Below the pieces are notes generated by a model, which worked only from the letters and a program-made list of their open reading frames with translations, was not told where the DNA came from and did no database searches. A program made the position numbers and the translations under genes. This document shows, piece after piece, positions 10,087 to 24,299 of a stretch of DNA of 32,000 bases. The stretch comes from Paracoccus suum. Its GTDB lineage: Bacteria > Pseudomonadota > Alphaproteobacteria > Rhodobacterales > Rhodobacteraceae. Each line of letters starts with the position of its first letter. Position 1 is the first letter of the stretch. The stretch spans positions 2,400,001 through 2,432,000 of the forward strand of contig NZ_CP030918.1 in assembly GCF_003324675.1 (NCBI RefSeq), given 5' to 3'.

Positions 10087-10716
10087 TTACTGAGCCCAGC
10101 TCGGCCGACCGGCGAACCCCGCACCGGCGTTGGTCGCTGGCTGGTTCGTCCGGGGCGCTGCGGGGGCGGCATGCTGCGATGCCTGACCCTGCGCAGCAGC
10201 GGCGCCGAACTGCAGACCCGCCGCACCCATGACCTGCGCGTAGTCGCGATGGTCGGGCGTGACCGCGCTGCGGATCTCGTTCTTGTCGTCGCCGCTGGCG
10301 TCGGTGCCGATGTCGATGCGGGCGATGAACTCGATCCCGTCGAGATCGGCGAAGCCGCCGATGCGCCGCGCCGCCTGCGCCTCGGCCGACATGTCCTTGT
10401 CGGAAATCCCGCGGGCCGAGTTCAGCATGCCGCGCACGAGGCTGCGGCCCATGTTGGCCCAGTCCGGCCCCTTGGGGCTGTAGAGCCCGATCAGGGTGAA
10501 GATCTTGCGCCGGGCGTACTGGCCTTCGGTCACCGTGAACTCGCCGTTGAGATAGACCGCGCCGGTCGAGCCGCGCGTGGCATAGCCGCCCGTCCAGCCC
10601 TGCGACGGATCGTCGAAGCCGCCCGGGCGAATGGTCAGCCGCACCTTGGCCAGCGTGCCCTTGGGGATCAGGTTGGTGTTGCTCTGCGCGTCGTTGAAAT
10701 CGTTCCAGGAACCCAC
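10087..10716 (-). CDS. DUF669-like protein (putative phage ssDNA-binding partner of the Sak4-like ATPase)
   Basis: GTG start at 10716 with AAGGAGG 6 nt upstream. Sits directly downstream of the AAA_24-type ATPase, as in Sak4/DUF669 modules. Low-complexity Ala/Gly/Gln C-terminal tail. Family assignment is from memory. Confidence 0.55.
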   Translation of the reverse strand: MGSWNDFNDAQSNTNLIPKGTLAKVRLTIRPGGFDDPSQGWTGGYATRGSTGAVYLNGEFTVTEGQYARRKIFTLIGLYSPKGPDWANMGRSLVRGMLNSARGISDKDMSAEAQAARRIGGFADLDGIEFIARIDIGTDASGDDKNEIRSAVTPDHRDYAQVMGAAGLQFGAAAAQGQASQHAAPAAPRTNQPATNAGAGFAGRPSWAQ

Positions 10717-10733
10717 GGGGAACCTCCTTTTGA

Positions 10734-12690: not shown

Positions 12691-13284
12691 TCAGGCCGTC
12701 GCGAGATCGTCCCAGGCGGGACCGAGACCGTGGGCGGTGAGGACGAGGCGGAGATCGGCGAGGCGGCGGTAGAGCGCGGACCGGCTGCCGAAACCCTCAG
12801 CCGCCAGCGCGGTGACGGGGCGATGCGCCAGCGCTGCGCAGAACCGGCGATCCTCAACCGGGAGCCGCGCGAGGGCGACCTGCAGGGCGTGGTGAAGTTC
12901 AGTGACGGCCGTCGCGGAGCAGGTCTGGCCATGCCAGGCGGCAAGCCCGTCCTCCGCGGTCAGGGTATTGCCGACCGGCTCGCGGGTTCCGGCCAGCGGC
13001 ACCTCAAGCGAGAGCATCGTCCCGCCCTGCGCACGGCGCCGGCGGTGATGGCGCATCGCGATCCGCGAGGACTGGTTGCGCAGGACGATGTTGGCGAAAG
13101 CGCCGATCCCGCCGCGCGAGGGGTCGTAGGCCGGCGAGCGGCGCAGGAGATCGATCAGGAGGTCTTGGCCCAGATCCTCGCGCTCGCAGACCGGCAGGCA
13201 CAGCTTGCGCCGCAGCCGTTGTGCCGCCGCATCCGCCTCGCGGATGATGGTTTCAATGTCGTCGGGGGAAAGTTCGATCTGCAT
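12691..13284 (-). CDS. sigma-70 family (ECF-like, regions 2 and 4) factor; first gene of the minus-strand operon
   Basis: DLGQDLLIDLLRR...DPSRG.IGAFANIVLRN resembles region 2. SRSALYRRLADLRLVL is a region-4-like HTH. The size (197 aa) is typical of ECF sigmas. Confidence 0.6.
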   Translation of the reverse strand: MQIELSPDDIETIIREADAAAQRLRRKLCLPVCEREDLGQDLLIDLLRRSPAYDPSRGGIGAFANIVLRNQSSRIAMRHHRRRRAQGGTMLSLEVPLAGTREPVGNTLTAEDGLAAWHGQTCSATAVTELHHALQVALARLPVEDRRFCAALAHRPVTALAAEGFGSRSALYRRLADLRLVLTAHGLGPAWDDLATA

Positions 13285-13549
13285 CGCTGTGCGCCTCGGT
13301 CATCGTTTCTGATGAGCCCAAGGTGCCGGATGCTGTCGGCGCGCAGGTGGGAACGGGGTGGGAATAAGGTGGGGGGTTGGTGGGGCGTCCAGACCTGAGC
13401 GTCAGTTTCTCGTGCAGGTCTCCATCAAAGCCCTTGGCCATCAGCCAAAGGGCAGCACTATTGTAGCGCATGTGCCTTCGGGGCCTACCCGTCGACAGTG
13501 CCACGCAGGTGATGCAACATCGGCATATACTGAGCTGGAAATCGAACGC

Positions 13550-15211
13550 ATGAACTTGAAGCCTCCGCCGGTCGACAAGGGACGAGCCGGCCTCGATGAA
13601 TTTCGCAGGAATGCGAAACTATACGAACTATCGCTTACAAACCGGATGAGCCGAGAGTTCTATCGGGCGGATCTAACGAAGTGGCAAAAGCTCTACGCGA
13701 CCTTGGCTGCAAAACGCGAGCCGGGAAGCAACGCTGCGATCCACTTCGCTTCGCTGTCATCGCTTTGCGGCGATCTGTTGGATCAATATGGGCCCGAGTC
13801 ACCGCCAAAGAAGCGAGCACCAAAGACGACTACGTCGACCCGACTGGTGTATCCCGATTTCCCGGATGAAGTAACTCACAGGCTCCATTTTCTGGAAGGG
13901 CCTGGGGCGCGACGCCAGCGCGCCAATGACCTCGTGTCGCACGCCGCCTTCGTTTTTCGACAAACCTCCAGTACCGGTCGCGTTCTCGTCTCGGTTGGAA
14001 CCCGGCAAGATGATACCAGACTGTTCGAGCGGCTGGTCGAGGCAATTGGAGCGGGTCTGTTTGGTGATCCGGCGAAGTCCGGTTTTGATGCGGCGCGCCA
14101 AAACCCCCAGTGCGCCAGCGATGCGGTAACCCCTCTGGACAGGGTCTGGCAGGACAACAACCAGGCGCGCGGATATAGCTGGCAGGCGCGTGCTTTGGGC
14201 GATCAGTTCCGGGGCGTTGACGGCAAGGGGCTTCCACAAGACCTTCCGGACGTGAAGGACGCGCCCCCTTGGGATCCGGACCCAAAGTGGCAAAATATTC
14301 TGAACTTGACGGAAGCGAACCGACTCCTTGATGCGATGGATTTGGTGGAAGCCATCCCAGGGCGTGATCGTGAGGCGCTTTTGGACGAGGTGATATATCT
14401 GAAATTCCTGACAGATCGCGAAATCCGAGCTGATGACGTGAGGCTGATCGCTCGTAAGTATGCAGCGACGTCGCTCATCGCGGGTCGCCTGCATGACGAG
14501 TTCGAGGCATTTGTGGCCTACTTGGATCAGGAGTTGCAGGACGATCCGCCCGTGCTTTCCAAACTGATTCGATTTGACCCTGACTTTGGCCAAGGGATGA
14601 TCCCTGTGCCGCCTCCCGCGTCGGACTGGCCAGCATACCGTGCATATCAGGCTCAGTTCATCAACTCTACGGCGCCTCGTGGCCGCATCTTCTCAGTAAA
14701 CATCGATGTTGGCTTCGCCAATGTCGAGAGCCTGCTCGCGGGGCATATGGCGCTGGCAGAGGACGCGTTTCGCCGCGATCGATCTATACCGGAGATCGGT
14801 GCGAGCGGGGGGATTTCCGAGCTTGCACTTCTTGACCTTTTCTGTGCGATTTGGCCCAACGCCAAGCACCAATGGCGCCCCTGGTTTCTTGGCCGTCAGT
14901 CGATCGACATATACATTCCCGAGATAAACTTGGCAGTAGAGTATCAAGGCCAGCAGCATTACGAGCCGGTCGCACTGTTTGGCGGCGAGGAAGGCTTCAA
15001 GAACGCACAGGTTCGGGATGAGCGAAAGCGACTGCTACTGAAGGCGAACAGCGTCCGCCTCCTTGAGTGGCGATATGATGCACCGATATCGAGAAAAGCG
15101 CTGATGCTAAAGCTGGCTGACATTGGGATATCTTTGCCACTCGAAGATTGGAGTGAGCTGGCGTCTCAGCCGTCAACCACGATATCCGAAGCGGGGACGC
15201 CAAGCCGATAG
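13550..15211 (+). CDS. 553-aa protein: unrecognised ~450-aa N-terminal region fused to a DUF559/Vsr-like PD-(D/E)XK endonuclease domain
   Basis: C-terminus reads RQSIDIYIPEINLAVEYQGQQHYEPVALFGGEEGFKNAQVRDERKRLLLKANSVRLLEWRY. This fits the D...(E)xQ/K...H...RD..K pattern of the DUF559 / restriction-endonuclease-like fold. First in-frame ATG is used (13550); its RBS is weak, so the start is uncertain. GC is visibly lower than in the flanks. Confidence 0.7.
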   Translation: MNLKPPPVDKGRAGLDEFRRNAKLYELSLTNRMSREFYRADLTKWQKLYATLAAKREPGSNAAIHFASLSSLCGDLLDQYGPESPPKKRAPKTTTSTRLVYPDFPDEVTHRLHFLEGPGARRQRANDLVSHAAFVFRQTSSTGRVLVSVGTRQDDTRLFERLVEAIGAGLFGDPAKSGFDAARQNPQCASDAVTPLDRVWQDNNQARGYSWQARALGDQFRGVDGKGLPQDLPDVKDAPPWDPDPKWQNILNLTEANRLLDAMDLVEAIPGRDREALLDEVIYLKFLTDREIRADDVRLIARKYAATSLIAGRLHDEFEAFVAYLDQELQDDPPVLSKLIRFDPDFGQGMIPVPPPASDWPAYRAYQAQFINSTAPRGRIFSVNIDVGFANVESLLAGHMALAEDAFRRDRSIPEIGASGGISELALLDLFCAIWPNAKHQWRPWFLGRQSIDIYIPEINLAVEYQGQQHYEPVALFGGEEGFKNAQVRDERKRLLLKANSVRLLEWRYDAPISRKALMLKLADIGISLPLEDWSELASQPSTTISEAGTPSR

Positions 15212-16116
15212 CCCCGGTTGCGCACGGTCATGATCAGGGTCTTGCTCTCGAGATCGGTGAAGCCCGCAGCCTTGAACGCGTCGCGCAGCTCGCGGATCAG
15301 ATCCTTGGCCTCGCGCGCCGTCGTGCCTTCGACATGGGATCCGGAGGCGACCTGATCGCGCGACAGCGCCTTTTCCAGCAGGCGCTCGAACACGGGGAAG
15401 ATCTGACGCGACAGAATGACGGAGCGACCGTTCCAGTTAACCTCGGCCGTGGCTCGCCGAACGCGAAGCACGGGCGTCACCGGGACCGGCGCCAAGGCAG
15501 CGACGTCGATTGCGGCGCCGAGACCATCCGAGGCGGGCGTCAGCAGCGCGAGGGTTTCGACCAGATGAAAGCCAGCATCGTGATGTCGCCGGGCAGCCTC
15601 CGGGGGTAACTCCGGTGCGAGTATCGTGATGTCCGAGCCCTGCGCGGCCTGGCGCAACGATGCGATGATGCCGTCGCCGGTGAGGGCTGCAGGCTCAAGC
15701 GCAAGAAACACCGCCCCTCCCAATGGCGTATCGCCGAGCCGCCAGACCTTCTCCCTCGCGAGTTTCGGGGCCGCGCCGAACCCTGCTGCCGCGCCGATCA
15801 CGGATGCCAGCGCTTCACTGCCGATGCGGAACGCCCGCAGATCGTCCTCGGTGAGATCGATGTCCTGTCGGCGATCGAGCGGACACTCGGCCCGAAATGC
15901 ATCACCCGCTTTCCGGATCGGCCGACAGGGGAGGCCGCACTCGCATGCATCGCAGACCTCCCATTCGGTGAGCGGCGCCTGTTCGACGAGGACGCGCCTT
16001 GCCAGCAGCCGATCGAAGAGCGGACCAAAGAAGGGTGCGGCAAGCTCGCCGGGCAGGATCGCGTCGTCGCCTGCCTCACTCAGCCGCGTCAACAAGCTCA
16101 AAATCGTCTCGGTCAT
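15166..16116 (-). CDS. 316-aa protein: N-terminal Cys cluster plus C-terminal OmpR/PhoB-type winged-helix DNA-binding domain
   Basis: Cys cluster: CDACECGLPCRPIRKAGDAFRAEC. C-terminus: VNWNGRSVILSRQIFPVFERLLE...IRELRDAF...IMTVRNRGYRLG, matching the trans_reg_C pattern (..Lt..Ef.ll..L....I..LR.k.....I.TvrG.GYrl). No receiver domain. Confidence 0.7.
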   Translation of the reverse strand: MTETILSLLTRLSEAGDDAILPGELAAPFFGPLFDRLLARRVLVEQAPLTEWEVCDACECGLPCRPIRKAGDAFRAECPLDRRQDIDLTEDDLRAFRIGSEALASVIGAAAGFGAAPKLAREKVWRLGDTPLGGAVFLALEPAALTGDGIIASLRQAAQGSDITILAPELPPEAARRHHDAGFHLVETLALLTPASDGLGAAIDVAALAPVPVTPVLRVRRATAEVNWNGRSVILSRQIFPVFERLLEKALSRDQVASGSHVEGTTAREAKDLIRELRDAFKAAGFTDLESKTLIMTVRNRGYRLGVPASDIVVDG

Positions 16117-17317
16117 TCATCAGCCCGTTCCGTTCGATCAGCTTCATCACCCGCGCTTCATGTTGGGTGCGGCGAAACTGCACGACGCCCGGAGGCCGCA
16201 GCTTGACCGTCACCTGCGACTGGCGCTTGCCGTCGCCCTTGAACAGGATCCGGAACACGAGCTCGCCCAGCCGCCAGGCGCCGGCGAACGAGACCGGTGT
16301 GCTACCGAAATGCTGGAGCGCGTCACCGCCGAGATCCCGCGAACGCAGCGTGCGCACCACGCGGGGATACCCCTTCTTGCCGGGCGCCATCAGGTCGGCC
16401 GCCGCCTCGATGATCAGCACCTTGTCGATCAGCGGATCGTAGGCGGCATCGAAGGCGAAGCCCGGTCCGGCCAGTTCGACCGGGCGCAGGGTATAGAGGT
16501 CCTGCGCATCGTCGCCGTCAAAGAAACCGGGCCTGTCCAGAATGATCGAGGCGAAAAGTTCCGCGATCTCAGGCTGATGCGCCTTCCGGATGCGGGCCAG
16601 CCGCAGCATGCCGGTGTTTTCAGAGTATCGCAGCACCGCGTGCGAAATTTGCCGCACGCTGATGACCCGCTCCTGCTGGCCCTCGACGACCGGCATGGTC
16701 GAGACCATGGAGCCATGGCTGACCACGAGATTGATCTCGTCATCGTCGTCGTAATCGCCCACCCGGCAGTAATCGCCGAGGAACGCATCGCGGAACAGCT
16801 CCGCGACGGCCGTCCGGAATGCCTCTACCTTCTCCTCGGTCAGGTCGATTGCGACGCCGCGTTCCCGCCCGGCGTACTCATGGAGGCGATCAGCGGTGAG
16901 CATCGCCATGTGGTCGGCGGCGGCATCGAACAGCTCGGGATGCTCCAGAAAGACCCGGACGGCGATGTGTTTGGGGTCATGCGCCTTGTTCGGCGCGTCC
17001 TCGTCGCCGGTCTTCATGTCCGGGAACAGATCGATGCCCTGACGATCGGCCTGCGCCTGGATGATCTCCAGGCCGCGGGCATCGCCCAGTTCCGCGATGC
17101 GGTGCAGATCGCCGCGCAGCCCTTCAGGATAGCTGTCCTCGGCGCCGGTCAGCAGCTTCTCCAGCGCCTCGCGGGCGGCATCCTCCTCCTGGTCCAGCAG
17201 ATCGACGGAGAAGCTCTTGTACTTGCCCTCGTGCCGAGCCAGCAGCGGCTTCATCAGGGCGAGGTCGATGGTCTTGATGAACCGGGGGTTCACGAACTTC
17301 TTCAGATTGCCGGCCAT
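16076..17317 (-). CDS. 413-aa protein of unknown function (no motif recognised)
   Basis: GGAGAGGA RBS ~8 nt upstream of ATG 17317. Protein-like acidic composition. No Walker A, nuclease or HTH motif seen. Overlaps the downstream wHTH gene by 41 nt. Confidence 0.7.
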   Translation of the reverse strand: MAGNLKKFVNPRFIKTIDLALMKPLLARHEGKYKSFSVDLLDQEEDAAREALEKLLTGAEDSYPEGLRGDLHRIAELGDARGLEIIQAQADRQGIDLFPDMKTGDEDAPNKAHDPKHIAVRVFLEHPELFDAAADHMAMLTADRLHEYAGRERGVAIDLTEEKVEAFRTAVAELFRDAFLGDYCRVGDYDDDDEINLVVSHGSMVSTMPVVEGQQERVISVRQISHAVLRYSENTGMLRLARIRKAHQPEIAELFASIILDRPGFFDGDDAQDLYTLRPVELAGPGFAFDAAYDPLIDKVLIIEAAADLMAPGKKGYPRVVRTLRSRDLGGDALQHFGSTPVSFAGAWRLGELVFRILFKGDGKRQSQVTVKLRPPGVVQFRRTQHEARVMKLIERNGLMNDRDDFELVDAAE

Positions 17318-17455
17318 CCCGAATCCTCTCCGCTGCAGGTTGTTTGTTCATCTTATGTTTCCGGCGCGTGAGCATGCAACCTGTGCGTGATCGCGTGGGA
17401 CGAACCTCGAGAGAGGTGAGTAGAGGCCCGAGGAGACGACCGACCCGAGGCCCGC

Positions 17456-17659
17456 ATGAAACGCCCGAACCCACTCCCCCCCGATCGGATGACCGCCGCT
17501 GAGCGCCGCACGGAGCTGTGCAACCTGCTGGCGCTCGGGCTGGTTCGGTTGCGGATGCGAGAGCGAGGCGAACACCCTGACGATACTGGAGAAATTTGCC
17601 TACACTCTCCGACCGACCAATGCCGTCATGCAACTCCAACTCACCGGAGAACCGCATGA
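17456..17659 (+). CDS. small conserved-looking ORF preceding DUF2924 (67 aa)
   Basis: Its stop (17657-17659) overlaps the DUF2924 ATG (17656-17658) as ATGA. The pattern MTAAERRTELCNLLALGLVRLRMRE...GE..L..SP.Q..HA resembles short ORFs I recall upstream of recombinase cassettes in alphaproteobacteria. The start could instead be the internal ATG at 17489. Confidence 0.5.
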   Translation: MKRPNPLPPDRMTAAERRTELCNLLALGLVRLRMRERGEHPDDTGEICLHSPTDQCRHATPTHRRTA

Positions 17660-18111
17660 CGACCCACGATCCGATCCCCGCGCGCCTGGCCGCGCTGAAC
17701 ACCGCGACGACGCCGGACCTGAAGAAGCAGTGGCGGGAGATGTTCGACAGCGAGCCGCCGCCGTTCAACCGCCGCTACCTCGAAAGCCGGCTGGCCTACC
17801 GCATCCAGGAACTCGCCTATGGCGGGCTGAAGCCGGAGACGATCCGGCGCCTCGAACGGCTCGGCGAGGAACTGGACGGCGGCGACAGGAAGAAGCGTGG
17901 CATGCGCGCCGACCGTGACCGCCCGATCACCGGGACGCGGTTGCTGCGCGAGTGGCAGGGTGTCGAGCAGGTCGTCACCGTCACCGCCGATGGCTTCGAA
18001 TGGCAGGGGCGGCCCTACAAGTCGCTGTCCGCCATCGCCCGCGCCATCACCGGCACCCGCTGGAATGGCTGGACCTTCTTCGGGCTCAAGAACCACAGGG
18101 GTCGGAAATGA
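17656..18111 (+). CDS. DUF2924 domain protein (serine-recombinase accessory)
   Basis: LKKQWREMFDSEPPPFNRRYLESRLAYRIQELAYGGLKPET...GTRLLREWQG..H.V.V...GFEWQGRPYKSLSAIARAITGTRWNGWTFFGL is the classic DUF2924 pattern. GGAGAA RBS 6 nt upstream. Confidence 0.8.
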   Translation: MTTHDPIPARLAALNTATTPDLKKQWREMFDSEPPPFNRRYLESRLAYRIQELAYGGLKPETIRRLERLGEELDGGDRKKRGMRADRDRPITGTRLLREWQGVEQVVTVTADGFEWQGRPYKSLSAIARAITGTRWNGWTFFGLKNHRGRK

Positions 18112-19433
18112 CGAAGCCGCCCGAAAAAGCGAAGGTCGTCCGCAAGCTGCGCTGCGCGGTCTACACCCGGAAATCCTCCGAGGAGGGACTGGAGCAGGAG
18201 TTCAACTCGCTCCATGCCCAGCGTGAGGCTTGCGAAGCGTACATCGCCAGCCAGCGCTCCGAGGGTTGGGTGCTGGTCCGCGATCAGTATGACGATGGCG
18301 GCATATCCGGCGGCACGCTCGAGCGCCCCGGCTTGAAGCGGCTGCTGGAGGACATCGAGGACGGGCTGGTCGACGTGGTGGTGGTCTACAAGATCGACCG
18401 CCTCAGCCGCTCGCTGGCCGATTTCGCCAAGCTGGTCGAGGTATTCGACCGGAACGGCGTCACCTTCGTCTCGGTGACGCAGAGCTTCAACACCACGACG
18501 TCGATGGGGCGGCTGACGCTGAACATCCTGCTCAGCTTCGCCCAGTTCGAGCGCGAGGTGACGGCCGAGCGGATCCGCGACAAGGTCGCCGCCAGCCGGA
18601 AGAAGGGGATGTGGATGGGCGGCGTGCCGCCCTACGGCTACCGCGTCGAGAACAGGAAGTTGCTGGTCGACGAGGAAAGCGCCCCACATGTGCGCTGGAT
18701 CTTCGCCCGCTTCCTCGAGATCGGGTCCTGCACGGAACTGGCGCGGGAGGTCGGCACGCGCGGCATCCGCACTCCCCGCGGCAACCGGATCGACAAGAAA
18801 TACATCTATCGGATGCTCAGCAACCGCGCCTACATCGGCGAAGCGGTCCACAAGGGCGACAGCTATCCCGGCGAACACGACGCGATCATCGACAGCGCGA
18901 CGTGGGACCGCGTCCACGCCATCCTGCTGGAAAGCCCGCGCAAGCGCGCCGCCCGGACTCGCGCCGACACACCTGCGTTGCTGAAGGGGCTGCTCTACGG
19001 CCCGGACGGCGCTGCCTTCTCGCCGACGCATACCCGCAAGGGCGGACGGCTGTACCGCTACTATGTCAGCCAGACGGTGCTGAAGCATGGCGCCGGATCG
19101 TGTCCAGTCGGCCGCGTGCAAGCGGGGGAGATCGAGGCGGCCGTCATTGACCAGCTGCGCACCGTGTTCCGCCAGCCTGAGATCGTTGCAGGGACGTGGA
19201 AGGCGGCGCGTGCGGAGATCGGCGACATCACCGAATCCGACGCCCGCGCGGCGCTGCAGCAACTCGATCCGCTGTGGAACGAACTCTTCCCCGCCGAGCA
19301 GGCGCGAATCGTGGCGCTGCTGGTCGGGCGCGTGGACATCGGCATGGACGGATTGAACGTCCGGCTCCGCATGGATGGTCTTGGCGCCCTTGCGCGCGAG
19401 ATACTGGCCGGAGACATGGGAGCGGCCGCATGA
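18108..19433 (+). CDS. large serine recombinase (resolvase/invertase catalytic domain plus recombinase domain)
   Basis: AVYTRKSSEEG (catalytic Ser), VYKIDRLSRSL, SFAQFERE, GGVPPYGY. ATG 18108-18110 overlaps the DUF2924 stop as ATGA. Confidence 0.9.
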   Translation: MTKPPEKAKVVRKLRCAVYTRKSSEEGLEQEFNSLHAQREACEAYIASQRSEGWVLVRDQYDDGGISGGTLERPGLKRLLEDIEDGLVDVVVVYKIDRLSRSLADFAKLVEVFDRNGVTFVSVTQSFNTTTSMGRLTLNILLSFAQFEREVTAERIRDKVAASRKKGMWMGGVPPYGYRVENRKLLVDEESAPHVRWIFARFLEIGSCTELAREVGTRGIRTPRGNRIDKKYIYRMLSNRAYIGEAVHKGDSYPGEHDAIIDSATWDRVHAILLESPRKRAARTRADTPALLKGLLYGPDGAAFSPTHTRKGGRLYRYYVSQTVLKHGAGSCPVGRVQAGEIEAAVIDQLRTVFRQPEIVAGTWKAARAEIGDITESDARAALQQLDPLWNELFPAEQARIVALLVGRVDIGMDGLNVRLRMDGLGALAREILAGDMGAAA

Positions 19434-19852
19434 CCCGCGGCACGCCGGTTCCTCAGACCGTGACGCTCCACGTCCCGTTCCGCGTCGTGAAGCGCGGTGG
19501 GCGCAAGGAGATGCAGTTGCCTGCCGGCGCCGCGCAACAGCGCAAGGCAAACAGCACACTTATCAAGGCTCTGGCCCGCGCGTTCCGCTGGAAGCGAATG
19601 CTCGAGTCGGCTGAATTTGCCACCATCGCTGAACTGGCTGAGCGAGAGGGGATTGCGCAATCATACATGACGCGTGTCCTCCGACTCACGCTGCTCGCCC
19701 CCCACATCGTCGAGGCGATCCTCGACGGGCGGCACGACCCGGAGGTGGAGCTGACGCGGCTGTCTGAGCCGCTTCCGTTCGAGTGGGCAGACCATTCCGC
19801 CCACTTCACGAAAGCCACCAAAGGGGGAACGCGCGCATGCGCCGATGTCTAA
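19430..19852 (+). CDS. recombinase-associated HTH protein (ParB/KorB-like HTH)
   Basis: ATG 19430-19432 overlaps the recombinase stop as ATGA. TIAELAEREGIAQSYMTRVLRLTLLAPHIVEAILDGR is a ParB-type HTH plus the 'LAPDIVEAIL.G' motif. Confidence 0.7.
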   Translation: MTRGTPVPQTVTLHVPFRVVKRGGRKEMQLPAGAAQQRKANSTLIKALARAFRWKRMLESAEFATIAELAEREGIAQSYMTRVLRLTLLAPHIVEAILDGRHDPEVELTRLSEPLPFEWADHSAHFTKATKGGTRACADV

Positions 19853-19983
19853 GAGGATCCCAGATTATTCCCACGCAACCGCCTGAGGGGGTACGCAAAG
19901 TGGTTTGCACCGGCTATACGCATCCCTTAAGGAGCCGCAAGAACAATGGCGGAACACTGCGCGACGCGCACGAAAGTCTGACG

Positions 19984-21972
19984 ATGGAATTTGATGTTGA
20001 TGCCGAGCTGTCGAAGCTCACCCGAGACGAGCTCGAGCGCCTTGCGAAGAGCATGATGACCAGCGGGGTGGCGCTCAGCTTCCACGGCCGACGTTCCGCC
20101 ATGCAGATCGCCAAGCGTGTCCGTCCTCGCCAGACTCGCCGGGAGCCTCGCCTCAATGTTGGCACGCCGGAGGCTCAAGCGAGGAATATGCTGATCGAAG
20201 GCGAAAACCTCCAAGCAATGGTGACGCTGTACAAGTATCGGGGCCAAGTCGATCTGATCGTCACGGATCCCCCTTACAACACCGGGCAGTATTTTCGCTA
20301 CAACGACCGGTGGGACAACGACCCGAACGACCCGGACCTCGGAACCATCGTGTCCAACGAGGACGGCTCCAAGCACACGAAATGGATCAAGGCAATGATG
20401 CCCCGCCTTCAGATAATGAAGGCGATGCTTAAACCATCCGGCGTGGTAGCAATCTGTATCGATGATAACGAGCTTTTTCATCTCGGTATGATGATGGACG
20501 AAGTTTTCGGGGAGAATAACCGGGTAGCTATCATCAATTGGCAGAAAGCATACTCTCCGAAAGGCGGAAATTCGATATCGAAGACCACTGATTACGTATT
20601 GGTCTACGCGAAGGACAAAGATCTCTCGAGGATGCAGCTGCTCCCGATTGACCGGTCTGGCACGAAGAACATTGACGGCGATGATGGGGGGGACTGGATT
20701 CCAACAGACCCGACAGCCAGGCAACACCGTGGAGCCACAGCCTATGCAATCCAGTCGCCGTTTACGGGCCATTTGCATTATCCAAACGGGGAATACGTCT
20801 TCGATGGACAGCTTCCGGAGCCCAGATCGCACTGGGTAAACTTCACAAAAGAGGAGGTCATCAAGTATCTCGCTGAGTGGGGTGTGAAGTACGTTGAACG
20901 CGACCTAGGCGATGGCCGGGGCAACGCTCTAGTCATCGCTGACTCTGATGTTGCCTTGGAGGGGTATCGGCCAGACCGGGACATGGCGGTTCAGCGAGCT
21001 GCACAGCTGGCGACTGAGCGTCGACAAAAGGGCAATTGGCCAAAGCTCTTCTTTCGCGACGATAAGAGTAGGAGACCTGGCGCGGGCCGCCCGCGGCTCA
21101 AGACGCCGATCGATGCAGTTCGGGCTGGCATGATTCCGACAACCTTCTGGGATGAAGATTTGTATGAATTCCCGATCGAGATCGGGTCCGTCACGTGGCC
21201 ACATGCACAATCTGGCCATTCAGATATGGCTCGCAAAGAGCTGGACGCGATCGTTGGAAAAGGACATGCGTTCGATACGGTTAAGCCTTTGCGTCTCCTA
21301 AAGAAGATCATCCAAATCTGGTGTCCACCAGAAGGTCTGGTTCTCGATCCTTATGCTGGTTCTGGATCGACAGGTCACGCAGTTCTTGAACTCAATCATG
21401 ACCTCGGCTCCTCCAGGCGTTTTATACTCATCGAGCAAGGCGCGCCTGAGAACGGTGACAAATATGCTCGTACACTGACTTGGCAACGCCTCAAGAACGC
21501 TGTGACTGGGGAGCGGCCCACGGGTAAACCAGCTACAGCCCTAGGCGGCGGCTTCGAGTATCGGCTCCTCACGAAGACCATCGACGCGAAGACGGTTCTC
21601 ACCATGCAGCGGGACGAGCTGATAGATGTGGTGCTGACTTCCCACTGGGAGACGCATAAGCGTTCTGCCCCGAGCCTCACCCGAGTTGATGGCGTTGACT
21701 ATCAGTATCTTGTCGGGAAGGATCAGAATGGTGAGGGATACTTCTTGATTTGGGACAATGGTGGCCCTGTCGGATCCCTTAACCGCGACACATACAAGCA
21801 AGTCGTGTCCGAGGCTAAAAAGGCTGGCCTTGAACCACCTTTCCATGTCTACGCCCGATACGAGCTTTTCCAGTCGTCGAACGTTCGTTTCTGGAAGATT
21901 CCGGACAAGATCCTTGCGGATCTTGGTTTGACGGACAATGATCAGTTCAACAATTCTGACGATAACGAATAA
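19984..21972 (+). CDS. mod: Type III-like restriction-modification methyltransferase (Mod; beta-class N6A/N4C MTase)
   Basis: TDPPYNT (motif IV) in the N-terminal third, ICIDDNE, and LDPYAGSGSTGHA (motif I) in the C-terminal third give the permuted order typical of Type III Mod. Stop TAA 21970-21972 overlaps the res ATG (TAATG). Low GC. Confidence 0.85.
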   Translation: MEFDVDAELSKLTRDELERLAKSMMTSGVALSFHGRRSAMQIAKRVRPRQTRREPRLNVGTPEAQARNMLIEGENLQAMVTLYKYRGQVDLIVTDPPYNTGQYFRYNDRWDNDPNDPDLGTIVSNEDGSKHTKWIKAMMPRLQIMKAMLKPSGVVAICIDDNELFHLGMMMDEVFGENNRVAIINWQKAYSPKGGNSISKTTDYVLVYAKDKDLSRMQLLPIDRSGTKNIDGDDGGDWIPTDPTARQHRGATAYAIQSPFTGHLHYPNGEYVFDGQLPEPRSHWVNFTKEEVIKYLAEWGVKYVERDLGDGRGNALVIADSDVALEGYRPDRDMAVQRAAQLATERRQKGNWPKLFFRDDKSRRPGAGRPRLKTPIDAVRAGMIPTTFWDEDLYEFPIEIGSVTWPHAQSGHSDMARKELDAIVGKGHAFDTVKPLRLLKKIIQIWCPPEGLVLDPYAGSGSTGHAVLELNHDLGSSRRFILIEQGAPENGDKYARTLTWQRLKNAVTGERPTGKPATALGGGFEYRLLTKTIDAKTVLTMQRDELIDVVLTSHWETHKRSAPSLTRVDGVDYQYLVGKDQNGEGYFLIWDNGGPVGSLNRDTYKQVVSEAKKAGLEPPFHVYARYELFQSSNVRFWKIPDKILADLGLTDNDQFNNSDDNE

Positions 21973-24299
21973 TGGAACCCATCGAATTTCAAGCCCGCGC
22001 CGCAGCGCAAGTTGCTCGGCGCTTCACCGATTACGCTGCAGACCCGCTAATGGTGAATCGCACCACGCCTGTTCCGTTTCTGCAGACGCTCGTGGCGATC
22101 ACCGGCAGCGGCAAAACGTTGATGCTAGCTGAGGCTGTTGCGCGGATTGGCGAAGAGCTTCCTCTTCCGCCGGTGGTTCTGTGGATATCGAAGGGACGTG
22201 TGGTGGTCTCGCAGACCTTCGAGAACCTTTCGTCTGGCAAGTATGCGGATAACCTCCCCGGTTTTCGAGTTATGCCGTTGCTGGAAGCCGCGCCCGAACA
22301 CTTGAGCAGCGAACATGAGCCGTTGCTCCTCGTTGCAACCGTTGGCAAGTTCGCGATCGACGACGCGTCGAGCGAGGAGCGCAAGGTTTATAGGGCTCAG
22401 CTCGACTTGGCAGAGGAGTCCCTGTGGGAGCTACTTAAGAAGCGCCGTACTGCGAAGGGACAGAGGCGTCCCCTGATCGTCGTCTATGACGAAGGACACA
22501 ACCTGTCCGATCTTCAGACCGATCGGCTCCTAGAACTCGCACCTGATGCGCTGATCGTTGCTAGCGCCACCATGTCGCTGCCGCCGCGTCTGAATAATGT
22601 CATCTCTCGCCTTCGTAGCGACCAAGGATGGACCGATCCGGATTTCTCGACGACCGTCTCGAGCCCAGAGGTCGTGGAGGCCCAATTGGTGAAGCAGCGG
22701 ATATCAATTGACGGATACATCACCCCGCTAGAACCCGCGCTAGATAACTTGCTGACCGACATGCGGAGGGCGCAGCAAGCAGCTCAAAATCTGAAGCTGC
22801 CTTTCCGACCAAAGGCCATATATGTCTGCTCCACCAATACTGTGGATGGCGTGCCAGTCTCAGAAGACCTCAAAAGGCCCTTTCAGGAACGACAGGCCCG
22901 GCCCATCCTAATATGGCGACACCTCGTCGAGGTCGCAAAGGTAGACCCAGCCAAGATCGCCGTCTACTGTCAGCTTAAATTCTCGAAGGAATCGCAGAAG
23001 CCGCCAGAAATGCACCTCTTCGATGGGGCGGAAAAAGACTACTCCCGATTCATCGCCGGCGACTACGAGCACATCATTTTCAATCTTGGCCTTCAGGAAG
23101 GCTGGGACGATCCAGCGGCGTCTTTCGCATACATAGACAAAGAAATGGCGTCAGCGCGACAAATCACTCAGGTCGTCGGGCGAGTCCTTCGGCAACCCGG
23201 GGCACAGCACTACAGCGATCCGGTCATGAACACGGCGCACTTCCACATCCGGACCGATGAGAAGCGGGTCTTCGACGACATCTTGACGCAGATCCGCGCG
23301 GACCTGGTTTCCGAGCATCCGTCCATAGCGTTGGTGGTGAAGGATGAGAAAACCCGAGGGAAGAAGGACAGCCTAGACCCACGGCCGGCTCGGACCATAC
23401 CCACTGTCGCGATTGAAAGTAGCGATGCGCTAGAGCCTATAGGGAAGATCGTCAAAGGAATGATGGACTTCCGAGACGGCGGACAGAACACGATCGGTCA
23501 AGGGAGCCGCATGCAGGTACTGCAGCTCATTGGATCGGAGACGGATCCACATTATGACTGGGTCGAAGTAGATCACAGCAACCGGATTATGACACGCCAT
23601 GTATTCCGCCGTGAGATTCAAAGGTGCTATCCGGGTGGGCTGCGAAGAGCGGGCGGCCCGATCAACTTGGTGGATATCGAGGACCCGAAGTTTGATGCGT
23701 TGATCGAGGCCAGCAGCCCGGCTGCAGAGCATATAAGGGAGACGGCTCGCAAAGTGGTAGAGGCCTATATTCAGCACTCCTTGGTTTTCCAGGATGATGC
23801 GGGCCACCCCTATTCAGTTGGACCGATAGCGGTTGACAGCAACGGAGGCGAGACTTTCAAAAAGTCGCTGCACGAACGCTATTCTGGCCTGAACGGCTTT
23901 GAACTGAGGTTTGCGAGGGCGATCGACAAGACCCAACGGGTCTGGACGCGGAACCCGTCCGGCAGCGGATATTCGATCCCACTATTGCATGCCGGGAAGG
24001 CGTACTTCCCCGACTTCCTCGTCTGGATAGATAAGGACATCGTGGCTATCGATACAAAGGGCACGCACCTTCTGCTTGAGGCATCGGCATCAAAATTGTT
24101 CGAGATCGGCGGATCAGAGGGAGGGCGACGGATCGTTCTTCGTCTCGTGTCGGAGGGGCATGTCGAAATTTCTAACGGCACCATCCACACCCGCAAGACA
24201 GCGGGCTTCACTGTCTGGGTGTGGCGGCATGGCCGTCCGCAGCCCATCTTCTGCGACACCGAGAAAGAGGCGGCGGAGATCTCCATCCGGCTCGACTGA
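21972..24299 (+). CDS. res: Type III-like restriction enzyme Res subunit (SF2 helicase plus C-terminal PD-D/ExK nuclease)
   Basis: ITGSGKT (motif I), VYDEGHN (DExH), VASATM (motif III), VVGRVLR (motif VI). C-terminal YFPDFLVWIDKDIVAIDTKG gives PD...DxK. At 775 aa it is shorter than classical Res proteins. Confidence 0.85.
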   Translation: MEPIEFQARAAAQVARRFTDYAADPLMVNRTTPVPFLQTLVAITGSGKTLMLAEAVARIGEELPLPPVVLWISKGRVVVSQTFENLSSGKYADNLPGFRVMPLLEAAPEHLSSEHEPLLLVATVGKFAIDDASSEERKVYRAQLDLAEESLWELLKKRRTAKGQRRPLIVVYDEGHNLSDLQTDRLLELAPDALIVASATMSLPPRLNNVISRLRSDQGWTDPDFSTTVSSPEVVEAQLVKQRISIDGYITPLEPALDNLLTDMRRAQQAAQNLKLPFRPKAIYVCSTNTVDGVPVSEDLKRPFQERQARPILIWRHLVEVAKVDPAKIAVYCQLKFSKESQKPPEMHLFDGAEKDYSRFIAGDYEHIIFNLGLQEGWDDPAASFAYIDKEMASARQITQVVGRVLRQPGAQHYSDPVMNTAHFHIRTDEKRVFDDILTQIRADLVSEHPSIALVVKDEKTRGKKDSLDPRPARTIPTVAIESSDALEPIGKIVKGMMDFRDGGQNTIGQGSRMQVLQLIGSETDPHYDWVEVDHSNRIMTRHVFRREIQRCYPGGLRRAGGPINLVDIEDPKFDALIEASSPAAEHIRETARKVVEAYIQHSLVFQDDAGHPYSVGPIAVDSNGGETFKKSLHERYSGLNGFELRFARAIDKTQRVWTRNPSGSGYSIPLLHAGKAYFPDFLVWIDKDIVAIDTKGTHLLLEASASKLFEIGGSEGGRRIVLRLVSEGHVEISNGTIHTRKTAGFTVWVWRHGRPQPIFCDTEKEAAEISIRLD

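What the first reader, a model, noticed from the sequence alone, without database searches (positions are those of the whole stretch)
13285..17455. Unassignable three-gene cargo block between the phage replication module and the integrase module: best candidate for an undescribed defence or regulatory system
Most genes in the flanking phage modules can be given at least a family-level call; these three genes cannot be assigned to any known system.
- They occupy the slot between the early/replication operon (head at 13284) and the serine-recombinase module (17456 onward). In prophages this slot usually carries moron or defence cargo.
- The block lies ~2.7 kb from a Type III-like R-M pair on the same element.
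- Contents: a nuclease-domain fusion (13550-15211, +) converging on a two-gene overlapping operon (17317 -> 15166, -). That operon encodes a motif-less 413-aa protein and a Cys-cluster/winged-helix protein.
- A predicted DNA-binding component, an unknown partner and a PD-(D/E)XK effector together are a plausible defence architecture. I cannot match the combination to any named system from memory.
- The nuclease segment also looks lower in GC than its neighbours (judged by eye, not computed).
Basis: partly seen in the sequence, partly recalled or inferred. Interest (0 to 1): 0.8.

Follow-up and report, generated by a model that had tools for sequence, protein, structure and literature searches.

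The report
Prophage induction switch plus unrelated nuclease cargo
The three genes are not one system: two are a conserved, previously undescribed control module of a widespread alphaproteobacterial prophage, probably the DNA-damage-triggered switch for its early genes, and the third is an independently mobile nuclease-like gene sitting in a defence-gene hotspot.

Summary
All three ORFs are real, match no Pfam, NCBIfam or PADLOC family, and the nuclease gene is low in GC. They are not a three-gene cargo block.

**The 413-aa (B) and 316-aa (C) genes are prophage backbone.**
- In all 41 related loci checked, from Rhodobacterales to Hyphomicrobiales and Rhodospirillales, B precedes C with a 35-41-nt overlap.
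- The pair always lies between DUF2924 plus a serine recombinase and a sigma-like early gene.
- B has an RdgC/RexA-type fold, seen by structure only.
- C has four invariant Cys, an alpha/beta domain and an OmpR/PhoB winged helix.

**Two conserved DNA elements suggest the mechanism.**
- An alphaproteobacterial SOS box (GAAC-N7-GAAC) sits 40-46 nt upstream of B in 31/31 distinct upstream regions. The window copy has one mismatch.
- Four CCCACC repeats at exact 11-nt spacing (pho-box-like) lie 100 nt upstream of the sigma-like gene.
- Inferred: LexA gates B-C, and C then binds the repeats and activates the early operon.

**The nuclease gene (A) is independent cargo.**
- It occupies a variable slot that elsewhere holds GmrSD, HNH, PLD and other genes.
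- It lies beside B-C in only 1 of 36 genomes that carry it.

Interest is moderate.

The parts
16076..17317 (-). Gene B, 413 aa: conserved backbone protein with an N-terminal helical region and an RdgC/RexA/CENP-N-type fold. First gene of the B-C operon.
   Evidence: ORF. 222 homologue clusters of fixed ~413 aa with no Pfam domain. AF2 pLDDT 81, pTM 0.71. Foldseek: RdgC 2owl E 3.5e-5, prob 1.0, TM 0.40-0.45, then CENP-N/Chl4; phage 'RdgC / recombination-associated' proteins in BFVD. No sequence-level link to RdgC.
15166..16116 (-). Gene C, 316 aa. Residues ~1-110 form a helical/beta region with invariant C55, C58, C60 and C78 (probable Zn site). Residues ~115-205 form an alpha/beta domain with no invariant Asp. 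Residues ~215-310 form an OmpR/PhoB-type winged-helix DNA-binding domain.
   Evidence: alignment A1. AF2 pLDDT 87. Foldseek: ArlR, PhoB and CadC DNA-binding domains at TM 0.55-0.66, prob 1.0. Profile against PDB: ArlR DBD 1.2e-6. Some relatives carry PF00486.
17346..17360 (-). SOS-box-like direct repeat AAACATAAGATGAAC, one mismatch to GAAC-N7-GAAC, 43 nt upstream of the B start codon. It overlaps the putative -10 (TAAGAT, 17350-17355); the putative -35 is TTGCAT (17374-17379).
   Evidence: GAAC-N7-GAAC at -40 to -46 in 31/31 distinct B upstream regions: 28 exact, 3 with one mismatch. The alphaproteobacterial LexA motif is GTTC-N7-GTTC (PMC3323433, PMC9578287). The promoter hexamers were read by eye from the alignment.
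13346..13384 (-). Array of four direct repeats CCCACC at exact 11-nt spacing (starts at 13384, 13373, 13362, 13351), 100-62 nt upstream of the ATG of the sigma-like gene. Predicted binding site of C.
   Evidence: Zero-mismatch match with chance expectation 0.01 per window. Present at -100 in all 33 distinct loci, 0/300 shuffles in most. One copy per locus and none in 80 other loci of the same phage group. The motif varies with lineage: CCCAT, GCCCAT, CACAC.
13285..13345 (-). Conserved leader between the repeat array and the sigma-like gene. It contains a TCATC-N6-GATGA palindrome and a GAGG ribosome-binding site.
   Evidence: Alignment. RNAalifold support for a hairpin is weak, -3.6 kcal/mol.
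12691..13284 (-). 197-aa sigma-like protein, first gene of the early/replication operon and the predicted regulatory target. It lies outside the finding's coordinates.
   Evidence: Pfam Sigma70_r2 E 3.5e-4, below the cut-off. A profile gives only sub-significant matches to ECF sigma factors CnrH, SigH and SigE. Always follows C or the cargo slot.
13385..15165 (.). Variable cargo slot between the stop codon of C and the repeat array. In this window it holds gene A.
   Evidence: The gap from C to the sigma-like gene ranges from 110 to 4963 nt, with GC mostly 0.52-0.61 (range 0.52-0.67). Contents differ between loci: HNH, HNH_2, GmrSD, PLD, T5orf172, DUF4238, Beta_protein plus ImmA-like, LuxR/MFS and others. 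In cargo-less L010 the array starts 8 nt after the stop codon of C.
13550..15211 (+). Gene A, 553 aa: independently mobile accessory gene. The N-terminal ~400 aa have no detectable relatives of known function; residues ~400-530 are a nuclease-like domain. The last 20 codons are a window-specific extension running antisense into C.
   Evidence: Homologues are 533-542 aa. No Pfam, PADLOC or PDB sequence match.
14747..15139 (+). Nuclease-like C-terminal domain of A, with invariant D, E-x-Q-G-x-Q-H, GG and D-x-x-K positions.
   Evidence: More than 6000 proteins carry this domain fused to many different N-termini, some with NUMOD1 / I-HmuI NUMOD modules. PHROG nuclease families. The fold is not verified.
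17456..17659 (+). Conserved small ORF (67 aa) between B and DUF2924, on the integrase strand. Function unknown.
   Evidence: Conserved in the alignment. Called as a 71-aa gene in L120. No Pfam hit.

Best explanation
The block is two unrelated things.

**1. B-C is a conserved two-gene control operon** of a ~40-65-kb temperate phage lineage of Alphaproteobacteria. It lies between the integration genes (small ORF, DUF2924, large serine recombinase, p140), which run divergently, and the early operon headed by a sigma-like gene.

Proposed mechanism (every step below is inferred, not shown):
- In the lysogen, host LexA binds the SOS box over the -10 of the B promoter and keeps B-C off.
- DNA damage removes LexA, and B and C are made together from overlapping, probably translationally coupled, genes.
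- C, an OmpR/PhoB-type winged-helix protein without a phospho-acceptor receiver, binds head-to-tail to the four 11-nt-phased CCCACC repeats. It activates the otherwise -35-less promoter of the sigma-like gene, which starts the early/replication programme.
- B, an RdgC/RexA-fold protein, is predicted to be a DNA-encircling or DNA-coating partner. It either assists C at the switch (as lambda RexA biases the cI/cro switch) or restrains RecA on phage DNA.

Shown here: the synteny, the protein folds, and the two conserved DNA elements with their positions.

**2. Gene A is a separate, horizontally mobile accessory gene.** It was inserted, in antisense orientation, into a defence/moron hotspot between C and its predicted operator. 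It is most likely a stand-alone nuclease-based defence or selfish gene.
For: **Synteny**
- B and C are adjacent and overlapping in every locus with sequence available: L001-L037, L119-L121 and L155.
- This holds even where B is only 41-46% identical and the replication modules differ.

**The element is a real prophage**
- Relatives on the same contigs encode large terminase, portal and a protease-capsid fusion.
- Host genes (PALP enzyme, MscS, GyrA) start near 24.5 kb.

**Protein folds**
- C: OmpR/PhoB winged helix.
- B: RdgC, CENP-N and phage RdgC-like proteins. RexA is a published RdgC-fold switch modulator (PMC11077077).

**SOS box**
- Present in 31/31 distinct upstream regions at -40 to -46.
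- Matches the alphaproteobacterial LexA motif GTTC-N7-GTTC (PMC3323433, PMC9578287).

**Repeat array**
- Unique in the window, with chance expectation 0.01.
- Position-conserved at -100 in 33 loci and found once per locus.
- Its motif changes along with the lineage of C.
- A 7-bp repeat plus 4-bp spacer is the pho-box/SARP architecture (established knowledge).

**Control must act in trans**
- Cargo of 1-5 kb, mostly on the opposite strand, separates C from the sigma-like gene in most loci.
- So any link from the B promoter to the early operon must act in trans.

**A is independent**
-.
- The slot holds PADLOC/Pfam defence families in other loci: GmrSD/HEC-06 1e-156, 'beta' 3e-44, HNH, PLD.
Against: - There are no binding, expression or induction data. 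The LexA box and the C-array link rest on motif resemblance and conservation only.
- The window's own SOS box has one mismatch (AAAC).
- The B-RdgC similarity is fold-level only (TM 0.35-0.45). hhalign against E. coli RdgC gives nothing, and RexA itself was not among the top 50 Foldseek hits.
- The -10 element assumed downstream of the array is weak and was read by eye.
- The sigma-like assignment is sub-threshold.
- Another backbone protein, p140, has a weak HTH and could be the real repressor.
- The direction of C's action (activator or repressor) is not determined.
- A's function is untested, and its N-terminal 400 aa are uninterpretable.
Confidence: 0.55

Rival explanations
1. One reading: A, B and C together form one undescribed defence system, with a DNA-binding sensor, an unknown partner and a nuclease effector.
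For: - The genes are adjacent and none is annotated.
- A carries a nuclease-like domain.
- The region lies between two defence-rich slots.
Against: - A is absent from 35 of 36 B-C loci.
- B-C is absent from 35 of 36 genomes that carry A.
- A is convergent with B-C, differs in GC and has its own contexts on ICEs, plasmids and next to IS elements.
- B-C is invariant backbone with phage regulatory DNA elements.
- No PADLOC hits.
Confidence: 0.03
2. B-C is the lysogeny-maintenance (immunity) module. C is the prophage repressor, made in the lysogen, and shuts the early promoter by occupying the four repeats. B is a RexA-like accessory or exclusion protein. The GAAC-N7-GAAC element is an autoregulatory or other site, not a LexA box.
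For: - Its position next to the integrase at the head of the early genes is the usual place for an immunity region.
- No CI-type repressor is visible in the backbone.
- In L005 and L037, C diverges sharply (47-56%) while flanking genes stay 80-92% identical. This is the mosaic pattern typical of immunity determinants, and the repeat flanks change with it.
- Lambda rexA lies beside cI (PMC11077077).
Against: - B-C is transcribed in the same direction as the early operon rather than divergently.
- An alphaproteobacterial SOS-box consensus sits over its -10 in 31/31 lineages, which argues that B-C is off in the lysogen.
- The array lies upstream of any plausible -10, at activator-type distance.
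- OmpR/PhoB and SARP proteins on 11-bp-phased repeats are typically activators (established knowledge).
Confidence: 0.22
3. B-C belongs to the recombination/excision machinery rather than to transcription control. B, an RdgC-like DNA ring, modulates RecA or acts as the directionality factor for the adjacent serine recombinase. C targets it to DNA. The repeat array is a recombination or replication site (iteron-like).
For: - B has an RdgC fold, and phage 'recombination-associated' proteins are its best viral structural matches.
- B-C is adjacent and divergent to DUF2924 plus the serine recombinase in all loci.
- An SOS-induced excision factor would be logical.
- The early operon encodes AAA_24, a PD-(D/E)XK nuclease and helicases.
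Against: - The array sits exactly in promoter position in front of the sigma-like gene, far from the att ends and from the helicase/primase genes.
- No known serine-integrase directionality factor has this fold (own knowledge).
- C has the DNA-binding domain of a transcription-factor family.
Confidence: 0.12
4. Gene A is a selfish homing-type endonuclease rather than a defence gene.
For: - Its C-terminal domain matches PHROG 'homing endonuclease' and 'intron-encoded nuclease' families.
- Relatives of the domain carry NUMOD1 / I-HmuI-NUMOD DNA-binding modules typical of homing endonucleases.
- It shows patchy, mobile distribution.
Against: - Full-length A has a conserved 400-aa N-terminal region with many invariant residues and no NUMOD module.
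- It occupies a slot that otherwise carries defence families.
- In about 20 Sphingomonadaceae it has a conserved upstream partner gene.
- It does not interrupt a gene.
Confidence: 0.3

Closest known systems
OmpR/PhoB-family and SARP activators on phased direct repeats (pho box: 7-bp repeat + 4-bp spacer)
   Same: - C ends in an OmpR/PhoB-type winged helix.
- The predicted site is four 6-7-bp direct repeats at 11-bp spacing just upstream of a promoter that lacks a visible -35.
   Different: - There is no phospho-acceptor receiver: no invariant Asp in the middle domain.
- The DNA-binding domain is C-terminal, as in PhoB, but is preceded by a Cys4 domain that neither family has.
- The window protein scores below the Pfam PF00486 cut-off.
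- It is phage-encoded and paired with an RdgC-fold protein.
E. coli RdgC and lambda RexA (RdgC/RexA/Iml3-Chl4 fold; PMC11077077)
   Same: - B's best structural matches are RdgC and CENP-N/Chl4, and in viruses, phage RdgC-like proteins.
- Like rexA beside cI, B is encoded next to the phage's switch regulator.
   Different: - No sequence similarity.
- B is 110 aa longer, with an extra N-terminal helical region.
- No RexB-like partner.
- RexA itself is not among the top 50 hits.
- Ring dimer formation and DNA binding are untested.
LexA-controlled prophage switches: GIL01 (LexA plus gp7; PMC4551915, PMC6182141), coliphage 186 tum, CTXphi (the last two from own knowledge)
   Same: - A host SOS box lies over a phage promoter at the top of the lytic cascade.
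- No CI-type repressor is evident.
- A phage-encoded activator acts downstream (gp6 in GIL01).
   Different: - The host class and box type differ (alphaproteobacterial direct repeat).
- The induced products are an RdgC-fold protein and an OmpR-type regulator, not a LexA homologue or an antirepressor.
- The element is integrated by a serine recombinase.
- Nothing has been tested experimentally.
Prophage and satellite defence hotspots (P2/P4-type variable loci; own knowledge)
   Same: - A fixed position between conserved backbone genes holds different defence-type genes in different relatives.
- The cargo is low in GC and mostly antisense.
   Different: - The phage lineage and flanking genes are different.
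- Some occupants are metabolic or regulatory genes: LuxR, MFS, 5'-nucleotidase, dehydrogenase.

Membership tests
OmpR/PhoB winged-helix DNA-binding domain (Pfam Trans_reg_C, PF00486), for C | Sequence match to the family model above its threshold | tested here: inconclusive
   - The window protein scores E 0.12, 12.9 bits, against a cut-off of 26.2.
- Several homologues carry a precomputed PF00486 hit.
- The family profile A1 hits the ArlR, YycF and PhoB DNA-binding domains at 1e-6 to 3e-3.
OmpR/PhoB winged-helix DNA-binding domain, for C | Fold: N-terminal beta-sheet, three helices and a C-terminal beta-hairpin wing | tested here: met
   The AF2 model (pLDDT 87) aligns to the ArlR, PhoB, CadC, CovR and AdeR DNA-binding domains at TM 0.53-0.66, rmsd 3.1-3.7, prob 1.0.
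Two-component response regulator, for C | Receiver domain with a conserved phospho-acceptor Asp | tested here: not met
   - The middle alpha/beta domain aligns loosely to receivers (BaeR, CosR).
- No Asp is invariant or nearly invariant between residues 110 and 210 across 78 homologues.
- There is no Response_reg hit.
RdgC family (Pfam PF04381), for B | Sequence membership | tested here: not met
   - No RdgC hit for B or for any of 80 homologues.
- Profile against PDB sequences gives nothing.
- hhalign against E. coli RdgC gives prob 0.06.
RdgC/RexA/Iml3-Chl4 fold, for B | Structural similarity over the centre and base domains | tested here: met
   - Foldseek: 2owl E 3.5e-5, prob 1.0, 331-354 aligned columns, TM 0.40-0.45.
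- CENP-N/Chl4 follow next; phage RdgC-like proteins match in BFVD.
- TM values are moderate, so this is a fold-level statement only.
RdgC/RexA fold, for B | Dimer that encircles or coats DNA non-specifically | not testable with these tools
   No multimer prediction or assay was available. Many invariant Arg/Lys/His residues (R28, R49, H72, K116, R185, H201, R222, R396) are compatible with DNA binding.
Alphaproteobacterial LexA operator (GTTC-N7-GTTC direct repeat) | Sequence motif in promoter position | tested here: met
   - Found at -40 to -46 from the B start in 31/31 distinct upstream regions.
- 28 are exact and 3, including the window, have one mismatch.
- Motif as given in PMC3323433 and PMC9578287.
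Alphaproteobacterial LexA operator | LexA binding and DNA-damage induction | not testable with these tools
   No expression or binding data were available.
Known anti-phage defence systems (PADLOC-DB 2.0), for A, B and C | Match to any component model | tested here: not met
   Zero families at E <= 1 for all three proteins.
PD-(D/E)XK nuclease superfamily, for A's C-terminal domain | Catalytic D...(D/E)-x-K core and the restriction-endonuclease-like fold | tested here: inconclusive
   - An invariant D...E-x-Q-G-x-Q-H pattern is present, with Q where K is expected.
- No Pfam match in A or in 99 of 100 relatives; one relative hits DUF2726 at 7e-4.
- No PDB sequence match.
- No structure prediction quota was left.
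Homing endonuclease, for A | Nuclease domain plus sequence-specific DNA-binding modules (such as NUMOD), and location in or beside a target gene | tested here: inconclusive
   - The domain matches PHROG homing-endonuclease families.
- NUMOD modules occur in relatives but not in A.
- A interrupts no gene.
Type III restriction-modification (neighbouring genes 19984-24299) | Mod methyltransferase followed by a Res helicase-nuclease | tested here: met
   N6_N4_Mtase at 3.7e-32, followed by ResIII at 3.9e-5 and DEAD.

The most novel reading that the evidence does not exclude
A large lineage of alphaproteobacterial temperate phages has no repressor of its own. Host LexA alone keeps the prophage silent by sitting on one promoter. 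DNA damage releases a two-protein switch: an RdgC/RexA-fold DNA clamp plus a receiver-less, Cys4-containing OmpR-type activator. That switch turns on a phage sigma factor through a pho-box-like array. This would be a new architecture for the lysis-lysogeny decision and a new function for the RdgC fold. Separately, A (alone, or with the 'HHIFYSWQSD' partner seen in Sphingomonadaceae) could be a new nuclease-based defence gene.
Probability: 0.3. Interest if true: 0.7.

Novelty: new variant of a known kind. Interest (0 to 1): 0.5.

Why it matters
- The B-C pair, the SOS box and the repeat array are conserved in hundreds of prophages of marine and soil Alphaproteobacteria (Ruegeria, Paracoccus, Roseovarius, Aquamicrobium and others). 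No induction switch is described for these phages, and both proteins are annotated only as hypothetical.
- The analysis turns two orphan genes into a concrete, cheaply testable circuit: LexA, then the B-C promoter, then C binding the array, then the sigma-like gene.
- If correct, it would explain how these prophages sense DNA damage and would give the RdgC/RexA fold a second phage-switch role.
- It also maps two defence hotspots flanking the integrase module. These are useful for mining new defence genes, including gene A.

Tried and rejected
**Protein searches that found nothing useful**
- Pfam, NCBIfam and PADLOC on A, B and C: nothing significant.
- Exact-protein look-up of B: not on record.
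- tblastn of B against GenBank phages and of C against PLSDB plasmids: no match.
- Profiles of B, of A's nuclease domain and of full-length A against PDB sequences: nothing.
- hhalign of the B profile against E. coli RdgC: no similarity.
- Per-member Pfam scan of 80 B homologues: only scattered noise.
- Per-member Pfam scan of 100 carriers of A's domain: no family for the domain itself.

**DNA-level tests that were weak or negative**
- The sigma-70 promoter and terminator scan of 13000-17800 gave nothing above chance.
- A generic repeat search of the intergenic regions gave mostly chance pairs, apart from the 11-nt array.
- A hairpin between the array and the sigma-like gene has weak RNAalifold support and was not pursued.
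- A sigma-54-type reading of the conserved GGCA...TTG stretch was rejected because the spacing is wrong.

**Literature and other readings**
- A Phaeobacter prophage quorum-sensing preprint (PMC13345283) does not mention these genes.
- B as a capsid protein (NCBIfam capsid_maj_Podo, E 0.032) was rejected as noise.

Full report
**1. The observation**

The three ORFs exist as described:
- A: 13550-15211 (+), 553 aa.
- B: 16076-17317 (-), 413 aa.
- C: 15166-16116 (-), 316 aa.

B and C overlap by 41 nt. A and C overlap tail-to-tail by 46 nt.

None of the three reaches significance in Pfam, NCBIfam or PADLOC. PHROGs match only the last ~120 residues of A, to phage nuclease families: phrog_34504 at 2.7e-24, phrog_559 at 9e-17 and phrog_9084 'homing endonuclease' at 3e-12.

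GC is 0.57-0.59 across 13501-15000, against 0.62-0.67 for B-C and 0.66-0.71 for the early operon.

- DUF2924 (2.5e-52) and a large serine recombinase.
- A type III-like Mod/Res pair.

Host genes (PALP enzyme, MscS channel, GyrA) begin near 24.5 kb, so the element ends there.

**2. B and C are backbone, not cargo**

Breadth of the families:
- B has 222 homologue clusters of almost fixed length and no Pfam domain.
- C has about 400 clusters.
- Sources span Rhodobacterales (Ruegeria, Paracoccus, Roseovarius, Limimaricola), Hyphomicrobiales (Aquamicrobium, Aurantimonas), Sphingomonadales and Rhodospirillales.

Every genomic context retrieved shows the same order:
- Divergent arm: p~130-140 <- serine recombinase <- DUF2924 (<- a ~70-aa ORF).
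- Forward arm: B -> C -> [variable slot] -> a 190-197-aa sigma-like gene -> a 113-117-aa gene -> replication genes.

This holds in 41 loci. It includes loci where B is only 41-46% identical and the replication module is of a different type: DEAD helicase with Prim-Pol, UvrD with Toprim, or DnaB. The B/C overlap of 35-41 nt is conserved throughout.

The element is a genuine prophage. On contigs that also carry B-C, the region beyond the methylases encodes large terminase (phrog_15, 1e-264), portal, and a protease-major-head fusion. IMG/VR proviruses of this group are 41-65 kb.

**3. The variable slot and gene A**

The distance from C to the sigma-like gene varies from 110 to 4963 nt, with GC mostly 0.52-0.61. 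Contents differ from locus to locus:
- Two HNH families.
- A GmrSD/HEC-06 type IV restriction enzyme (PADLOC 1e-156).
- An NgoFVII-like PLD protein.
- T5orf172.
- DUF4238.
- 'Beta protein' with an ImmA-like peptidase (PADLOC 'beta', 3e-44).
- Also LuxR/MFS genes, a 5'-nucleotidase and a dehydrogenase.

Most occupants are antisense to the phage genes. A second variable slot beyond p140 carries type I, IIG or III R-M systems, Abi_C, DUF4411/M78, AIPR/SNF2, and TIR/SLATT genes.

A occupies the first slot in only one other metagenomic locus (L011 = L122) and one species genome (Plastorhodobacter daqingensis, L155, 94% identity).

Conversely, 36 species genomes carry a full-length A homologue, and 35 of them have no B, C or sigma-like gene within 6 kb. 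In those genomes:
- A lies near relaxases, IS elements or large ATPases.
- In about 20 Sphingomonadaceae it lies directly downstream of a conserved ~550-aa protein with no family match.

So A does not travel with B-C.

Features of A:
- Its C-terminal domain occurs in more than 6000 proteins with many different N-termini, some bearing NUMOD modules.
- That domain has an invariant D...E-x-Q-G-x-Q-H...GG...D-x-x-K pattern.
- Neither the domain nor the conserved 400-aa N-terminal part matches Pfam or any PDB sequence.
- The window copy is 20 aa longer than all homologues, because its ORF runs on into the antisense of C.

**4. What B and C look like**

C (AF2 pLDDT 87) has three parts:
- An N-terminal region with four invariant cysteines (C55, C58, C60, C78).
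- A small alpha/beta domain that aligns loosely with receiver domains but has no conserved Asp.
- A C-terminal OmpR/PhoB winged helix. Foldseek TM is 0.55-0.66 to ArlR, PhoB, CadC and CovR, and the family profile hits the ArlR DNA-binding domain at 1.2e-6.

B (pLDDT 81, pTM 0.71):
- It matches E. coli RdgC best (2owl, E 3.5e-5, prob 1.0, TM 0.40-0.45), followed by CENP-N/Chl4.
- Among viral models it matches phage 'recombination-associated / RdgC' proteins.
- There is no sequence-level support.

The RdgC/Iml3-Chl4 fold is also that of lambda RexA. [quoted passage not shown]

**5. Two conserved DNA elements**

*(a) An SOS box upstream of B.* Alignment of the region upstream of B shows GAAC-N7-GAAC at -40 to -46 from the start codon in all 31 distinct upstream regions.
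- 28 copies are exact.
- Three have one mismatch, including the window (AAACATAAGATGAAC, 17346-17360).
- Lineages whose surrounding intergenic DNA is otherwise unalignable still carry it.
- It overlaps a plausible -10 of a TTGNNN-N17/18-TANNNT promoter.
- GTTC-N7-GTTC is the LexA operator of Alphaproteobacteria (PMC3323433; PMC9578287).

*(b) A repeat array upstream of the sigma-like gene.* A ~105-nt block upstream of that gene is conserved right up to the cargo boundary. It opens with four direct repeats CCCACC at exactly 11-nt spacing (window 13346-13384).
- A zero-mismatch match has a chance expectation of 0.01 per window.
- The array sits at -100 in all 33 distinct loci.
- It occurs once per locus and nowhere in 80 loci covering the methylase-to-capsid part of these phages.
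- In cargo-less L010 it starts 8 nt after the stop codon of C.
- In diverged lineages the phasing and position persist, while the motif shifts: TCCCAC, CCCAT, GCCCAT, CACAC.

A 7-bp repeat plus 4-bp spacer is the site architecture of PhoB and of SARP activators. Both use OmpR-type winged helices (established knowledge).

**6. Proposed mechanism**

Shown here:
- The synteny.
- The protein folds.
- The two DNA elements and their positions.

Inferred:
- LexA occupies the B promoter in the lysogen.
- DNA damage derepresses B-C.
- C binds the array as tandem dimers and activates the sigma-like gene's promoter, which starts the early programme.
- B is a DNA-binding partner, either RexA-like at the switch or RdgC-like towards RecA.

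One argument for action in trans: in most loci 1-5 kb of mostly antisense cargo separates C from the sigma-like gene. Read-through from the B promoter therefore cannot be the link.

Weak points:
- There are no binding or expression data.
- The -10 element downstream of the array is weak.
- The sigma assignment is sub-threshold (Pfam E 3.5e-4; ECF sigmas at E 0.5-2).
- The window's SOS box is imperfect.
- p140 has a weak ParB/MarR-type HTH and could be a repressor.

The main rival is that C is the lysogenic repressor.
- For it: the usual position of immunity regions, and the sharp divergence of C (47-56%) in L005 and L037 within otherwise 80-92% identical backbones.
- Against it: the SOS box argues that B-C is off in the lysogen.

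**7. Comparison with known systems and novelty**

The parts resemble known things:
- OmpR/PhoB/SARP activators on phased repeats.
- The RdgC/RexA fold.
- LexA-gated prophages such as GIL01 (PMC4551915, PMC6182141).
- Defence hotspots in prophages.

The combination is not described in the sources searched: an SOS-boxed operon encoding an RdgC-fold protein and a receiver-less, Cys4-bearing OmpR-type regulator, with a pho-box-like array in front of a phage sigma-like gene. Both proteins are annotated only as hypothetical or 'OmpR/PhoB-type domain-containing'. I rate it a new variant of a known kind, namely a prophage induction switch.

A is an uncharacterised mobile nuclease-like gene in a defence hotspot. 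It is a reasonable but unproven defence candidate, and it is unrelated to B-C.

**8. Verdict**

- The physical observation is largely confirmed.
- The interpretation as a single three-gene defence or cargo system is refuted by co-occurrence.
- The 'regulatory' alternative is supported for B-C, with a specific and testable mechanism.
- Confidence that B-C is backbone and A is independent cargo: about 0.9.
- Confidence in the LexA -> B-C -> array -> sigma-like-gene activation circuit as stated: about 0.5.

Noticed in passing
window 19941-19955 (+) and 19858-19874 (+): An exact GAAC-N7-GAAC lies 29-43 nt upstream of the ATG (19984) of the type III mod gene, the same distance as the box in front of B. 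A CCCA-type repeat pair, TCCCAGATTATTCCCAC, lies 70 nt further upstream. This may be SOS or phage control of the R-M cargo, or it may be chance: three exact boxes occur in the 32-kb window.
   Followed up: no
window 10709-10723 (+): A second exact GAAC-N7-GAAC sits at the junction of the AAA_24 gene and the 209-aa gene. It recurs at the same place in most related loci, but the region is about 97% conserved anyway, so the recurrence is not independent evidence.
   Followed up: partly
window ~13296-13313 (-): A palindrome TCATC-N6-GATGA(C) lies 17-34 nt upstream of the ATG of the sigma-like gene. It is conserved in distant lineages, with some compensatory changes in L121. RNAalifold support is weak. 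It could be an operator for another dimeric regulator or a 5'-UTR hairpin.
   Followed up: partly
window 17456-17659 (+): A conserved 67-aa ORF lies between B and DUF2924 on the integrase strand. It is called as a 71-aa gene in L120 and has no family match. It may be a small regulator or an excision factor.
   Followed up: partly
window 19430-19852 (+): A conserved ~140-aa protein downstream of the recombinase has a sub-threshold ParB/MarR-type HTH (E 0.0085). It is an alternative candidate for the prophage repressor or the recombination directionality factor.
   Followed up: partly
window 15149-15211 (+): The window copy of A is 553 aa, whereas all homologues end at 533-542 aa. The usual stop is missing, and the ORF reads 20 codons further into the antisense of gene C.
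   Followed up: yes
L160-L190 (Sphingomonadaceae and others), about 1.7 kb upstream of the A homologue: In about 20 genomes A is preceded, on the same strand, by a conserved ~550-aa protein starting MPHHIFYSWQSD. That protein has no Pfam or PADLOC hit. A TrwC-like relaxase lies about 6 kb away. This may be a two-gene accessory unit on ICEs or plasmids.
   Followed up: partly
L023:5096-5122: This relative has only three of the four 11-nt repeats, because exactly one repeat unit is deleted. It is a natural variant that could be used to test the function of the array.
   Followed up: no
L005/L006/L007 and L037, gene C: C is only 47-56% identical to the window protein, while the flanking recombinase, DUF2924 and sigma-like genes are 80-92% identical. 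This is a mosaic, immunity-type pattern of allele replacement centred on C.
   Followed up: partly
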